Part shown: in pieces, positions 15,001 through 30,000 of the stretch
Layout of the letters: the number at the start of each line of letters is the position of its first letter
Position numbering within the stretch: the first letter of the stretch is position 1
Assembly: GCF_031769215.1 (NCBI RefSeq)
Contig: NW_026782074.1
Location: 806,001-870,000 of the forward strand
Source: Ylistrum balloti
Lineage: Eukaryota
DNA: 64,000 nt
Direction of reading: 5' to 3'
Position numbers: made by a program

Positions 15001-18000
15001 TTGACATATGTTGTCTTGACTTTAATGATATTATTGCCTTTGATGAAGGCGCTTTTGGAAGTTGTCAAATGCAAGGTCACTGGTTTCTGTAACTGGCTAA
15101 AAACAATTTACATATTGTTACTCTTTGCTATTAATATTTCAGTGCTCCTTGTTTGATGAACAAAATTAAAAAATTAAAAAAGTAATGAAACATCAAAATT
15201 TGTTTTTAACTTCAATATCTTAAATTTTATTATGTTCCCTAAGTTTGATCAGGTTCAAAAGCATGTATATATATGTGTGATTTACAAAGTTCAAGGTTGT
15301 TTTGAAACATAGCAATGCAGTGACACAGTAATCTCTGGTATATGTAGGACCAGTCGTGTCAGTGACATTTTCATACCTTAAATCATACAGCTATATCTTC
15401 TATCATTATATGTATATATGACGTTAAATGATTTGGGATCACGTTATTTTATCTGGACAGTCATCCATAAGATATCATGTATGGTTTCAATGTATTTTAA
15501 TATGGTTTTTTTTATAAATGCGAAATGTGATCAGTGTTCATGTAGGTTTGTTTTCTAAATTTCTGTAGAACAAAAAACGCTTTAGGATGTGGTGACTAAT
15601 CGACAGTATTAAAGATAAAAAAAAAAAAGATGAAAAAAATCAGGCACATGGTCAATGTGAAGATTTTTAATACTTGTTGTGTACCCTGATGTTTCCAGCT
15701 TGATTAATTTCATGAGAATTTCCCAAAATACTCACAAGAAAGTTAAGAAGGGTGTTCCTGAAACTGTTAATGTTGTTTAACAGTCTTTTGGCCTATATGT
15801 TGTCATTTTAAAAACAGAAATAGAATACCAACGTTAGGGAGGATTTGATAACACACTTAGCAACAGGTGGAAACAACTTGAAGTTTCTAAAATAAAAGTT
15901 TTGTCTGTACCGGTGTTACCTTGGTACTGTGATAAGAATCCCAGCAACAGATGCTCTAAACTGAATTAATTGTTAAGTAGACTGACAGCGATCTACATTA
16001 TAGGTATATACACCTGTAGGTGGAGTTAGTCATTTGTACAATATTGTTTTACCAGTAATTATTTCTATATACAGCACCAAGTACACTGTAAAAGATCAGC
16101 TTTGATTTCACCAGCAGTTTTTGTATGTTTTAAGTCTAATTATGAATGGATTAAAGTAATTGTATTTGATTTATTCATTCAGATACTTAGTCATTAAGTA
16201 GGAAGCATATTGTTTCTTTCAAAATAGTTACAGGTACATTGCTTGAGTGTTATGGACTCAGATTCTCAATATTATTATCCTACAATATATGTGTATATTG
16301 ATGTAAAGAGTCCTAAACATACTGATATACCAGGTATAATGCTTAATTATCATGTGGTAAAGTTTGCATAATTAAGATAATGAAAGGATCTTAAATTAGG
16401 ATACCCTCATTATTGATAAATATTTAGCTTCTGTCAGTTACATCACCTCTCTTGTCTAATTATCATTCTCTCTTCAGACACGTTTATGTTATATGATATA
16501 TGTTATCAATATCCTCTTATTTTCATCCAACTTCAGACACTACTTATCAGAGCACAGATACAAGCAGTAAACATTACACCTGCAGAATACTCCTTAGACC
16601 TCACCTGGACAGCAAGTGACGTGGATAACAATTACACTGTTGGCTATGGATTGCCAGGAAATATCTCCTACAAGGATGTTGACCGATCTTCAGGGTCAGC
16701 TGTGGTCACTTACACCATCACTGACCTTCAACCTGGGGTCACCTATCAAATTGACATAAGACATGATGGCACATCCATTTATAATGCCAGTCATACAACA
16801 AGTAAACATGTTTTTATCAGTTTGTGTTTCAATCTGAAATTGTTCCTTTTTATACAGTGCTGATAGTGTAAGTTTATTTCAAACAGAAAACTACAGAGTA
16901 ATAACTAACACTATACAGAAATGAAACTTATTTCCAAGCTTGTTAAAGTTCTACGGCAAGTGATTTCACTTATATAAAAGATTGAAATGTTCCCTTCTGG
17001 AACGACCTACAAGTATTTACTGCTATAAATAATTGTACCTTTCAGAACCCCTCCCTCCCAGCAATATCAGTGTGGATGAAGCTGGCACTGAGAACTTGTA
17101 CATCTCCTGGACACCTGATGCGGACAGTGTACAGGACTCCTATCGTGTCTACCTGACGGGAATCACTAATTTCTCTGAGGTGTACGAGTCAGAACTCCTC
17201 ACAGTACTGTCTCACAATATCACAGGAGTCTACCCTGGCCATGTTTATACTATCACTGTTGTCTCCTCAAGTCAAGGGGTTCTCAGTAACTTCTCCACAA
17301 TTGTTGATGATAATACAGGTAATATTCAGACATTCAATCATGTTAATTCTGGTTTTATAAAATAACCTTTCTGTGTGAATTCTGAACAGAAAATAAACTT
17401 TTGAAGTCTAAGTTTGTTTCAAAACTCAGAATATTAATCAATGCTAAAGGTAAATTCTTCAAAAATCAGCCATGACAGCCATACAACCTGTCTGCTAGCA
17501 ATTTATTTTAGAAATTGTACTCAGATGTATGAGTGAAATCCTGGAACATTTACATATATTTAGGATCAAGATAAGTATATTACTGCTTCAGCATCCATTG
17601 TTATTATGACTTTTTGTTACTATGTTGTGTGAAAACATCCATGTAACTGAAGTTTTTTTTTTGTTCAGTACCGCTGTCCCCCGTCATACAGAGCGTAGTG
17701 GCACTGGATAACAGTAGTATCATGATGTCCTGGGTTACTGAAATCCACAGCACACAGGTAGGTCACAAGGTTTACAGCTGAAATATATCACACAGGTACA
17801 CAGCACACAGGTAGGTCTCAAGGTTTACAGCTGAAATATATCACACAGATACACAGCACACATGTAGGTCACAAGGTTTACAGCTGAAATATATCACACA
17901 GGTACACAGCACTCAGGTAGTTCACAAGGTTTACAGCTGAAATATATCACACAGGTACACAGCACTCAGGTAGTTCACAAGGTTTACAGGTGAAATATAT

Positions 18001-27000: not shown

Positions 27001-30000
27001 CTTGTTGTGTCAAGCTATTTGTTTATTAGATAACTGTAAAGAAAAGATTTGAATTTGAAAAAAAATGTAATTAAAAAAATATGTAGCTATTTAACTACTT
27101 AGAGCTGTTTTAGTGAAACATTGATCCCAACTGGACTCCAGGTTTTGTTTAGGGGTTCACCTACAGAATCAATCAATGGTTTGCTGTGAAATAATAGACA
27201 GCAAACCTAACAATGGTTAGAATTGCCTTACTTTGGATTCCTGGGGTCAAGTAGATGTTTTACTGGAACAATCTTGGCAATTATTAACATCCTCAATACA
27301 TACTGAATGCAAAAATGTAAGGAAATTTTCCTAAAAAAGCTTGTGCTTAAAATCAAACCCAAAATTTGGTTTTTAGATGAGACAGTTATGTACTTAAACT
27401 GTTTGATATAAAGTGGTGACATAATAGACATCTGTTCTAACAACTTGATAAGACACCTTCTAACTTGGTGTTGTAGGTGTATGCTAAGACCTAATTTTCC
27501 TAAAAAAGCTTGTGCTTAAAATCAAACCCAAAATTTCATATTTTTTTGTACCCCCTAGAGTGCTTACATCTGTGTGTATTTGTGATAACCTTGTGTAGAA
27601 GAAATCTCGGAGGGTCACTCTTGACTGTTTTTATCCAGGGATAGGGTGTATATATTGAAGACTTTTAGAGTTCTTTTTGAAACTAATACTGTACACCTAA
27701 TTACAGGTTGGCGGCACTGTTGGTAGTAGAAACCTGACCCTGGCAGGCAGTGTGCAGTACCAGAGTGTGTACAACATGAACTTCACTAATCTCCAGGCTG
27801 GTCACACCTACACCTTCACAGTCAGTTGATCATATGTATCTTACACTGAAATATGTAACAAACTTTCAAATGATAAATTTTATAAGGTCCAGAGAAGAAA
27901 ATACTTTTCAAATGAAATATCTTTACAATTCTACATTACATTTTTTTTGAAATTATTTGTGTGAAATATCATGTTTAATATCTTCTGGAAAGTTTTTTCC
28001 ATTTCATTGTATTTCCTGGTGTGATATAAATTGGTGTTTAGATTAGAAAGTTATATACTTAAACTGTTTGATATAAAGTGTTGACATTGAAAGTTCTCTG
28101 TTATAACAACTTAATATGACACCCTCTAACTTGGTGTTGTAGGTGTATGCTAAGACAGTGACTGTAGGAATGGCAGCAGTGTACAACATCACTCTACGAA
28201 CTTATCGTAAGTTTCTTCTTTTTTCTTTATCATTAAGTTTTTTATGCACCCACCATTTAGTTTGGCAACCTTCTGAATCAATGTCATACCTTGAAAAACC
28301 TCAGGTCAGATTGGTTCATATTTAACTCATAATTTCTAAAGTTCCACACCTACATATTAAGACGGTCATCAGGCAAAGTTAAAGGGTCAAAGGTCGCACT
28401 TGGCATCTTCTGTAAATAAATTGATTAAACAATTATATTTAGCTATGTATATGGGGACAAAGGCCTGCATATCTGTTATTTTCATGTTCCAGTTACAGAT
28501 AAGGTAGTAAGAGGCATTATATTTCACAACTAACAGAATCTACTACTGTAACTGTCATTTATCTCCAAGCTGACATGAGTGCAACCTGTCAAACTAACAT
28601 CAGATTAATGATATGCGGAGAATCTGTCACTTGGTACCTGATAACAACTTGCCCTCTCATTTTGAAATGTGTTAATTAGATTAATTCCATTTGATTTCTC
28701 GAGCTTCTCACTTTTTCAAGAGAAGGTAGTGGTGGTGTTAACACGACCAAAATATCATAAGCAACATATTGTGATCCTTTACATTCCTGTACTGTTCCGT
28801 TGACTTTATAGTGTTGGTCAACTGAATCAATTCATCTCTTACCATGGTATGTTTGTCTGTAGTCAGTTGTATGTAGACGCTGCCAACTCAACATCTAACG
28901 GTGTTACTGATATACGTATCACCACAGTTACTGATAAAGATTTGATCTAATTTCTGTTACAGCTCCTCCAATTATAGATGCTGCCACCTCTACGCCTAAA
29001 GGTGTAACTGACAAAGGTATTGCCACAGTTACTCCAACAACACTAATTGTTCATTTTACAAATGCATTCTCAGTAAAATATGGGAATGTTGTGAATTACA
29101 CCGTAATTGTTGCCACGGATACGACCGAACAGTACACCAACACCCATGCCACGCTCCCGGGTTGGAAGGCCGCCCAAGTGGACCCCAGTATAAAGGCTTA
29201 CCAGGCCATTGCTAACTGTTCTTCTTTCTTTGAGGAGACTTCCACATGCAATGGAGTGTTTCGTCTACACAAACGTAGCGTCACTGTGGACTCTAAAGTG
29301 TTTGAGATTGGTACAGAGTCTGACTGTTATTCACGTTCATATTGTAATGGGCCGCTTAAACCACAGACCAAGTATTATGTCAAGTTGAGAGGTTACACAT
29401 ATGGTGGATATACAGATACAAACTACTCCAAACCATTCCTTACCAGTAAGTAAACACTCAAATCTCTACACATACACTGTGTTGTAACTGTATCTTCAAC
29501 TCTCACTATATACTATTACTCTATAGTACTATATGTACTAGGATAGTTTATAAAAGTTGATCAAATTGTAGTATTTATATTGATGTATGTATAATAGGTA
29601 TGTTAGGGAATAAGTGATGAAAGATAATATGTAAAATACAAGAAACATGTGTTTATGTGATTATCTGTAGAATATGTGATACTTTACACAGTATATATGG
29701 TGTTGTACACAGTATATATGGTGTTGTATACAGTATATATGGTGTTGTACACAGTATATAGGGTGTTGTACACAGAATATATGGTGTTGTACACAGTATA
29801 CATGGTGTTGTACACTGTGTATATGGTGTTGTACACAGTATACATGGTGTTGTACACAGTATATATGGTGTTGTACACAGAATATATGGTTTGTACAGTA
29901 TATATGGTGTTGTACAGTATATATGGTGTTGTACACAGTATATATGGTGTTGTACACAGTATATATGGTGTTGTACACAGAATATATGGTGTTGTTCACA

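What the first reader, a model, noticed from the sequence alone, without database searches (positions are those of the whole stretch)
17738..28945. Recurrent local copying of splice junctions along one gene
Seen: within 11 kb of the RPTP gene, five independent duplications include an exon boundary or exon start. These are donor arrays at exon 4 (53 bp x10) and exon 16 (50 bp x8), an acceptor array at exon 13 (41-44 bp x9), a templated copy of the exon-20 acceptor (27368-27492) and a decayed copy of the exon-21 start (28874-28945). The units are unrelated to each other, so this is not one mobile family. Inference: either a mutational process (transcription- or splicing-coupled breaks or template switching) is biased to exon edges, or decoy splice-site arrays are tolerated or used to tune isoforms and NMD. 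This is the best candidate for an undescribed system in the window. It may equally be a by-product of a minisatellite-rich genome with short introns.
Basis: partly seen in the sequence, partly recalled or inferred. Interest (0 to 1): 0.65.

Follow-up and report, generated by a model that had tools for sequence, protein, structure and literature searches.

The report
Splice-junction minisatellites ("mirages") in a scallop gene
Several introns of a scallop receptor tyrosine phosphatase gene hold short tandem repeats whose first or last unit includes the neighbouring exon edge and splice site, a kind of repeat already described in amphioxus and in some human genes and probably a tolerated by-product of a repeat-rich gene with short introns.

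Summary
The window comes from the scallop Ylistrum balloti, not from human. The gene is an R3-type receptor tyrosine phosphatase ("phosphatase 10D-like").

I found two more: a 30-bp x8 array at the exon-15 donor and a decayed copy of the exon-12 donor. The units are unrelated to each other and differ in age.

The annotated protein uses the exon-proximal site each time. Every decoy would give a stop codon or a frameshift. The exon edges are conserved in four other bivalves, so the copying ran from exon to intron.

The excess at junctions is modest. Four of 15 intronic arrays in the gene span a junction, against 1.2-2.05 expected under random placement with exon-internal duplications purged (P 0.03-0.10). 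With weaker duplications added it is 6 of 18 (P 0.009-0.04). These P values are uncorrected, and the region was picked post hoc.

Array density is the same in short and long introns. The kind is already described: amphioxus "mirages" and the human F7, 6-16, CBS, LMNB2 and PDGF minisatellites.

Verdict: a new (mollusc) member of a known kind. An undescribed system is not supported. A junction-biased mutation process is not excluded.

The parts
17746..18300 (+). 53-bp x10.5 minisatellite. Unit 1 holds the last 12 nt of exon 4 and its donor (GT at 17758). It has a 5-unit (265-bp) higher-order repeat.
   Evidence: TRF. Self-BLAST gives 96.9% at offset 265 against 92-93% at other offsets. Unit listing. 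Sixteen decoy GTs score above the 95th percentile of intronic GTs, and 3 of them match the true site over the 9-mer.
22360..22478 (+). Exon-12 end plus donor (exon ends at 22395) and one decayed tandem copy at 22429-22478.
   Evidence: Local alignment score 33; 0 of 500 dinucleotide shuffles reach it. A third unit is not supported (477 of 500 shuffles reach its score).
22600..23026 (+). 41-44-bp x9.6 minisatellite. The last unit holds the exon-13 acceptor (exon starts at 23010) and the first 17 exon nt.
   Evidence: TRF, BLAST extension, unit listing. Seven decoy acceptors score above the 95th percentile of intronic AGs.
24105..24346 (+). 30-bp x8.1 minisatellite. Unit 1 holds the last 13 nt of exon 15 and its donor (GT at 24118). 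None of the 7 later units keeps the GT.
   Evidence: TRF, unit listing. No decoy GT scores above threshold.
24789..25196 (+). 49/50-bp x8 minisatellite. Unit 1 holds the last 25-38 nt of exon 16 and its donor (GT at 24827). All 7 later units keep an identical donor 9-mer.
   Evidence: TRF, BLAST, listing, scores. The copies read ATC (Ile, as in three other scallops) where the exon now reads GTC (Val).
27324..27536 (+). In intron 18: 44-bp perfect direct repeats (27324-27367 and 27493-27536) flank a 125-128-nt copy of 28028-28156. The copy includes a decoy exon-20 acceptor (an exon using it would start at 27477).
   Evidence: BLAST gives 100% over 44 nt and 87.6% over 129 columns. Global alignment shows 16 differences of 130, all in the first 98 columns. 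There are no other copies in the window.
28028..28156 (+). Source of that copy: the 3' end of intron 19, the exon-20 acceptor and the first 14 nt of exon 20 (starts at 28143).
28861..29033 (+). Decayed copy (28874-28932, with an AG at 28861-2) of the start of exon 21 (28963 onward; matched part 28975-29033), offset 100-101.
   Evidence: BLAST 79.7% over 59 nt, E=3e-8. The acceptor part is not significant on its own.
9209..44768 (+). Host gene: an R3-type receptor tyrosine phosphatase with 31 coding exons, FN3 repeats, a membrane-proximal domain and one phosphatase domain.
   Evidence: 100% to the Ylistrum balloti protein; exon placement; fn3, PTP_tm and Y_phosphatase, exon by exon.

Best explanation
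These are 'mirage'-type minisatellites: ordinary local tandem duplications that arose independently and at different times in a repeat-rich gene.

Inferred steps. A founder duplication of 30-100 bp (replication slippage or template switching) lands anywhere. One that falls wholly inside an exon breaks the reading frame and is purged. One that falls in an intron, or straddles a single exon-intron junction, leaves an intact exon next to an intact splice site and survives. The surviving duplication then expands and contracts like any minisatellite.

With collapsed introns of only about 90-250 bp, a large share of tolerated placements straddle a junction. The gene keeps working because the spliceosome uses the exon-proximal site: the first donor or the last acceptor. 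The copies stay silent or feed NMD.

Shown here: the structures, their independence, the direction of copying (exon to intron), the non-productive nature of all decoys, and a frequency close to random expectation. Inferred: the mutational mechanism, and the silence of the decoys in vivo.
For: - Structures and coordinates.
- Independence: no cross-similarity between families. Ages differ: within-array matches are 95, 93, 92 and 88%, and the single copies are 87.6% and 79.7%.
- Direction: the exon edges are conserved without indels in Argopecten, Pecten, Mizuhopecten and Mytilus. The exon-16 copies keep the Ile codon that three other scallops have.
- The annotated protein uses the first donor and the last acceptor at every array.
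- Array density is 0.64/kb in introns 2-28 and 0.58/kb in introns 1, 29 and 30.
- Expected junction-spanning arrays are 1.2-2.05 of 15; observed 4.
- The exon part of the unit ranges from 12 to 38 nt with no fixed breakpoint at the splice site.
- All decoys give a stop or a frameshift.
- The same tolerance is documented for human F7 IVS7, where only the most upstream of identical donors is used (PMC1557585). [quoted passage not shown]
Against: - There is still a nominal 2-3 fold excess at junctions: P=0.027-0.044 under the gene-wide null and 0.067-0.10 under the own-intron null. With BLAST-level duplications it is 6 of 18, P=0.009-0.038.
- The exon-12 copy, found by a targeted look, and a decayed duplication around annotated exon 1 would add to the excess if counted.
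- Seven decoy acceptors upstream of exon 13 score well (one 10.4 bits against 10.1 for the true site). Their silence is assumed, not shown.
- No RNA data, no population data and no orthologous introns were available.
- The exon-20 acceptor copy has an internal age mismatch that a single simple event does not explain.
Confidence: 0.7

Rival explanations
1. A mutational process is biased towards exon edges. Examples would be breaks or template switches coupled to transcription, splicing or chromatin boundaries. Junction-spanning duplications would then arise more often per base than intron-interior ones.
For: Nominal excess: 4 of 15 arrays against 1.2-2.05 expected, and 6 of 18 against 2.0-3.0. 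Seven junction-associated copies occur in 11 kb, of several ages. The same pattern recurs in several amphioxus genes, where the authors call the mechanism unclear (PMC3087553).
Against: The P values are 0.009-0.10 without any correction for a region chosen post hoc. Overall array density is no higher in the short-intron part of the gene. Duplication breakpoints lie 12-38 nt inside exons, with no common position relative to the splice site. Copies that include an exon are easier to detect when old, because the exon copy decays slowly.
Confidence: 0.15
2. The decoy splice-site arrays are functional. They would titrate U1/U2 or divert a share of transcripts into NMD to tune expression, and so be kept by selection.
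For: Three of 10 later units at exon 4 and 7 of 7 at exon 16 keep a donor 9-mer identical to the true one. Seven decoy acceptors at exon 13 score above the 95th percentile. Human 6-16 and CBS use the two nearest pseudo-sites (PMC1557585).
Against: No decoy gives an open, in-frame product. The exon-15 array has lost every GT, and several exon-4 units carry GT-to-AT or weakening changes. The units are unrelated, and identity within arrays is what young minisatellites show anyway. Only one protein is annotated.
Confidence: 0.08
3. Assembly artefact: repeat copy numbers or the copies themselves are mis-assembled.
For: Minisatellites are hard to assemble, and no reads were available here.
Against: There are seven separate structures, each with ordered variant units, including a clean 5-unit higher-order repeat. 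The decayed copies cannot be assembly duplicates. The contig is long (1.14 Mb). In lancelet PGBD5, similar repeats held up on re-sequencing (PMC3902484).
Confidence: 0.04

Closest known systems
Amphioxus 'mirages': minisatellite-like tandem duplications of exon-intron boundaries. Reported in Adh3, globins BflGb6 and BflGb9, troponin C and PGBD5.
   Same: The tandem units span an exon-intron boundary, at both donor and acceptor sides. There are several per gene or per genome. Units vary in length (10-160 bp). Many copies keep AG/GT. Normal splicing is reported unaffected (PMC3087553, passages read; PMC3902484, passage read).
   Different: The phylum differs: mollusc, not cephalochordate. Searches for such repeats in bivalves or outside amphioxus found none in the held library. 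Length instability and somatic polymorphism, reported for Adh3, could not be tested. The original description (Canestro et al. 2002, PMC117041) is not held, so I know it only through these two papers and recall.
Human minisatellites whose first monomer spans the donor: the F7 IVS7 37-bp VNTR, interferon-inducible 6-16, CBS IVS13, LMNB2 and PDGF intron 4.
   Same: The first unit is made of the last exon bases plus the start of the intron, so the donor is reiterated in the intron. The authentic, most upstream site is used (PMC1557585; abstract and introduction/discussion passages read). The arrays at exons 4 and 16 have this anatomy.
   Different: Those cases are one array per gene and on the donor side only. 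Here there are three donor arrays, one decayed donor copy, one acceptor array and two acceptor or exon-start copies in one gene. Site usage here rests on an annotated protein, not on RT-PCR.
Intron gain by tandem duplication across an AG|GT (Rogers model; Xenopus and potato cases).
   Same: A tandem duplication carries splice signals (listings and abstracts of PMC3265369 and PMC4974935; PMC3087553).
   Different: No new intron is made here. Introns 4, 15 and 16 end in unique sequence with their own acceptor. The protein shows no indel at these junctions against four other bivalves.
Templated insertions by template switching (MMBIR/FoSTeS or polymerase-theta end joining). This comparison is recalled; I read no paper on it.
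   Same: The exon-20 acceptor copy is a 125-128-nt stretch templated from 665 bp downstream. It has 5 nt of shared sequence at the left join, 2 extra nt at the right join and a 44-bp duplication of the target.
   Different: The flanks, and the last 32 nt of the insert, are perfect, while the first 98 columns differ at 16 positions. One simple event does not predict that.

Membership tests
Mirage minisatellites (amphioxus) | Head-to-tail repeat of a short unit (minisatellite-like). | tested here: met
   TRF gives 53 bp x10.5, 41 bp x9.6, 30 bp x8.1 and 49/50 bp x8.0. Three further junction copies are single duplications.
Mirage minisatellites (amphioxus) | The repeat unit spans an exon-intron boundary. 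| tested here: met
   Junctions placed from the annotated protein lie inside the first or last unit of four arrays.
Mirage minisatellites (amphioxus) | Regular splicing is not disturbed, and no aberrant mRNA results. | not testable with these tools
   Only an annotated protein is at hand. It uses the exon-proximal sites and aligns without indels to orthologues. There is no RNA data.
Mirage minisatellites (amphioxus) | Length instability or polymorphism between haplotypes. | not testable with these tools
   One haplotype of one assembly is available. No other scallop DNA is reachable (one search shows only the window in /data).
F7-type 5' pseudo-site minisatellite | The first monomer is made of the last exon bases plus the first intron bases. 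| tested here: met
   Exon 4 contributes 12 of 53 nt, exon 15 13 of 30 nt, and exon 16 25-38 of 50 nt.
F7-type 5' pseudo-site minisatellite | [quoted passage not shown] | tested here: inconclusive
   Met at exon 16 (7 of 7 later units). Partly met at exon 4 (3 of 10 identical over the 9-mer, the others weakened). Not met at exon 15 (0 of 7 keep a GT).
F7-type 5' pseudo-site minisatellite | Only the most upstream site is used. | not testable with these tools
   The annotated protein is consistent with this. There is no transcript evidence.
Intron gain by tandem duplication (Rogers model) | Both ends of the intron derive from the two copies of one duplicated segment. | tested here: not met
   The 3' ends of introns 4, 15 and 16 are unique sequence with their own polypyrimidine tract and AG. 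Self-BLAST finds no donor-acceptor similarity.
Intron gain by tandem duplication (Rogers model) | The intron is absent from close relatives. | not tested
   No genomic DNA of other scallops is available. The proteins show no indel at the junctions.
R3-type receptor protein tyrosine phosphatase (host gene) | FN3 repeats, a membrane-proximal domain, a transmembrane segment and a single phosphatase domain. | tested here: met
   fn3, PTP_tm and Y_phosphatase were found exon by exon. A hydrophobic segment lies in the exon at 31038-31233. The best named hits are 'tyrosine-protein phosphatase 10D-like' and 'phosphatase eta-like'.

The most novel reading that the evidence does not exclude
Junction-spanning minisatellites are a general feature, enriched genome-wide, of minisatellite-rich marine invertebrates such as scallops and amphioxus. 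A duplication process tied to exon edges or splice junctions would produce them. It would be a steady source of decoy sites, intron lengthening and, occasionally, new exons or introns.
Probability: 0.12. Interest if true: 0.6.

Novelty: new member of a known kind. Interest (0 to 1): 0.3.

Why it matters
This gives a clear non-chordate example of 'mirage' repeats. It has seven junction-associated copies of different ages in one gene, on both donor and acceptor sides.

It shows what a fair null looks like. Arrays must be collapsed to one unit, and exon-internal placements removed. Once that is done, most of the apparent targeting disappears.

If a genome-wide test still showed enrichment, it would point to a mutational process linked to exon edges, which the amphioxus literature left open. 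It would also bear on how introns grow and how new splice sites arise.

For annotation, such arrays offer many equal-scoring splice sites. They are a practical trap for gene predictors and short-read splice mapping.

Tried and rejected
- A third unit of the exon-12 donor copy is not supported: 477 of 500 shuffles reach its score.
- Similarity across the exon-21 acceptor itself is not significant: 255 of 500 shuffles.
- The 21-mer array (29668-30857) and the 54-mer array (31846-32168) were tested for decayed units reaching the neighbouring junctions. None was found, with scores of 14-20. They count as intron-interior.
- I considered that the exon-20 acceptor copy is a mobile element. No other copy exists in the window on either strand, and the exon part encodes residues conserved as far as Mytilus.
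- I considered intron gain by duplication. It is rejected; see the membership test.
- Lowering the TRF threshold to 30 added only items of period <=15 and <=45 bp, none at a junction. I left these out of the counts as a different class. Including them would raise the expected number and weaken the excess further.
- The first Pfam call failed on wrong frames and was re-sent with codon-aligned exons. Three ORFs outside the gene and one FN3-region exon gave no family.
- The original mirage paper (PMC117041) is not held.
- Two papers on repeats and splicing had nothing on junction-spanning units in the passages read (PMC4039745; PMC10078293).
- Searches for such repeats in bivalves, for VNTR pseudo-sites and for 'mirage' outside amphioxus found no mollusc report.
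Full report
Source and gene. The window has no N. It is AT-rich (GC 0.30-0.47) and dense in minisatellites (46 TRF rows). One exon (28965-29444) is 100% identical to the NCBI protein 'tyrosine-protein phosphatase 10D-like [Ylistrum balloti]' (P0001, 1754 aa). The next hits are Argopecten, Pecten and Mizuhopecten at 89-91%. 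I therefore take the window for scallop DNA, not human.

Searches were made exon by exon. Instead the named database protein was laid on the window, which gave exactly one GT..AG solution for each of 27 introns. Exon 1 (9209-9241), a 12-nt micro-exon (39913-39924) and the last exon (44738-44768) came. That makes 31 coding exons, 30 introns and 60 junctions. Single exons match fn3, PTP_tm and Y_phosphatase.

The observation. All five items stand.
- Exon 4 (ends 17757): a 53-bp x10.5 array at 17746-18300.
- Exon 16 (ends 24826): a 49/50-bp x8 array at 24802-25196, with similarity from 24789.
- Exon 13 (starts 23010): a 41-44-bp x9.6 array at 22600-23003, with similarity to 23026.
- Exon 20 acceptor: 27363-27490 copies 28028-28156 (87.6%), which crosses the acceptor at 28143.
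- Exon 21 start: 28874-28932 copies exon 21 positions +13 to +71 (79.7%).

Two more were missed.
- A 30-bp x8.1 array at 24105-24346, whose first unit holds the last 13 nt of exon 15 and its donor.
- One decayed copy of the exon-12 donor at 22429-22478 (0 of 500 shuffles reach the score).

No family resembles another at E<=0.01 on either strand. Identities range from 95% to about 80%. These are separate events of different ages, not one mobile family.

Anatomy of the copies. I scored sites with weight matrices built from the gene's own 30 donors and 30 acceptors. These are small samples, and the true sites of the arrays are among them.
- Exon 4 array: 16 decoy GTs score above the 95th percentile of 2125 intronic GTs. 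Three are identical to the true 9-mer, two carry a -1 change and four a +5 change. A second donor-like motif in each unit is destroyed (GT to AT) in 3 of 10 units.
- Exon 16 array: all 7 later units keep the true 9-mer.
- Exon 15 array: none of the 7 later units keeps a GT.
- Exon 13 array: 7 decoy acceptors score above the 95th percentile of 1702 intronic AGs. One scores 10.4 bits against 10.1 for the true site.
- The copy in intron 18 carries an acceptor identical to that of exon 20.

Using any decoy would be unproductive.
- Read-through from exon 4 meets a stop at 17779, before the first decoy.
- At exon 16 the first decoy adds 50 nt (a frameshift), and all later ones include a stop at 24898.
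- Five of 7 exon-13 decoys bring an in-frame stop, and the other two shift the frame.
The annotated protein uses the first donor and the last acceptor throughout.

Direction and age. The residues encoded at each copied exon edge are conserved, without indels, in three other scallop genera (85.8-87.0% overall identity) and largely in Mytilus (49.9%). The exon is therefore the original and the intronic units are the copies.

At exon 16 the exon now reads GTC (Val). All 7 copies read ATC (Ile), which is the residue in Argopecten, Pecten and Mizuhopecten. The array preserves an older state of the exon.

Is the coincidence with junctions more than chance? I collapsed each array to one unit and asked where a founder unit of that length could lie if duplications arise uniformly and those wholly inside exons are purged.
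- TRF at its default score finds 15 arrays in the 30 introns, and 4 span a junction.
- The gene-wide null expects 1.22-1.41 (P=0.027-0.044).
- Conditioning each array on its own intron expects 1.85-2.05 (P=0.067-0.10).
- Collapsed host introns are short: 252, 228, 230 and 91 bp. The chance of straddling a junction in them is 0.22-0.70 per array.
- Array density is the same in introns 2-28 (0.64 per collapsed kb) and in the three long introns (0.58).
- Adding the duplications that BLAST finds at uniform sensitivity gives 6 of 18, against 2.0-3.0 expected (P=0.009-0.038).
- Counting donors alone gives 3 of 15, against 0.75 expected (P=0.035).

These figures are uncorrected, and the region was chosen because it looked remarkable. 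Old copies that include an exon are also easier to detect. The exon-12 copy was found by a targeted look and is not in the counts. Weaker TRF items (period <=15) were also left out, and none of them is at a junction. The result is a 2-3 fold excess that one gene cannot establish or dismiss. The exon part of the units (12-38 nt) shows no fixed breakpoint at the splice site, which speaks against breaks made at the junction itself.

What is known. The kind is described. [quoted passage not shown] They cite Adh3 (units of 10-72 bp) and other loci, and they call the mechanism unclear (PMC3087553; abstract and section passages read). Pavelitz et al. add PGBD5 and troponin C and state that such repeats do not produce aberrant mRNAs (PMC3902484; one passage read).

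Borensztajn et al. list human genes whose minisatellite has its first monomer across the exon-intron boundary: F7, 6-16, CBS, LMNB2 and PDGF. For F7 they show that identical pseudo-sites are functional but lose to the most upstream site (PMC1557585; abstract plus introduction and discussion passages read).

The first description (Canestro et al. 2002) is not held, so I cite it only through these papers. The supplements of PMC3087553 (alignments of the mirage units) could not be seen. In the held library, searches for such repeats in bivalves or outside amphioxus found none.

Unexplained detail. The copy of the exon-20 acceptor looks like a templated insertion. It has 5 nt shared at the left join, 2 extra nt at the right join and a 44-bp duplication of the target. 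However, the 44-bp flanks are identical, and so are the last 32 nt of the insert (polypyrimidine tract, AG and 14 exon nt). All 16 differences lie in the first 98 columns (Fisher P=0.013 for insert against flanks). Possible causes are two events, local conversion, or copying from a diverged template. I could not tell which.

What stayed unchecked. No scallop DNA beyond this window was available. So the genome-wide test, orthologous introns, allele lengths and any transcript evidence are all open.

Verdict. This is a real, tidy set of junction-spanning repeats. It is best read as a mollusc example of a known kind, produced by ordinary local duplication and filtered by selection in a gene with short introns. 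It is not an undescribed system.

Noticed in passing
window 53651-56583: A 60-bp x48 satellite (94% matches) sits in a stretch with raised GC (0.47) and strong GC skew (0.40). It lies about 9 kb downstream of the phosphatase gene. No function is known.
   Followed up: no
window 8832-9274: The annotated first coding exon (9209-9241) and its donor lie in the second unit of a decayed ~154-165-bp duplication (65.9% over 293 nt). The annotated N-terminus shows no hydrophobic signal sequence although this is a receptor, so exon 1 of the public model may be wrong or incomplete.
   Followed up: partly
window 39913-39924: A 12-nt micro-exon encoding four residues of the C-terminal tail was found by pattern. 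It has AG and GT flanks and lies between two introns of 4.3 and 4.8 kb.
   Followed up: yes
window 27324-27536 and 28028-28156: Age mismatch inside the exon-20 acceptor copy. The 44-bp flanks and the last 32 nt of the insert are perfect, while 16 differences fall in the first 98 columns.
   Followed up: partly
window 17746-18300: The exon-4 array has a 5-unit (265-bp) higher-order repeat: 96.9% at offset 265 against 92-93% at other offsets. A recent duplication of five units at once would explain it.
   Followed up: yes
window 571-775 and 987-1091 versus 34992-35198 (opposite strand): A dispersed repeat (89% over 207 nt) occurs in intron 28 of the phosphatase gene and again near the start of the window. 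It is probably a mobile element fragment.
   Followed up: no
window 29668-30857, 40387-41429, 43269-43626: Large intron-interior arrays in the same gene: 21 bp x56, 36 bp x28 and 23 bp x16. Arrays make up about 5.7 kb of 30.3 kb of intron.
   Followed up: partly
window 2135-3068, minus strand: Two open frames of 75 and 100 residues look like exons of a neighbouring gene on the opposite strand. Neither has a Pfam family at E<=0.01.
   Followed up: partly
window 11951-11985 and 36702-36736: A 35-nt match at 94% links intron 1 and the start of the 63-bp repeat in intron 29. Its meaning is unknown.
   Followed up: no
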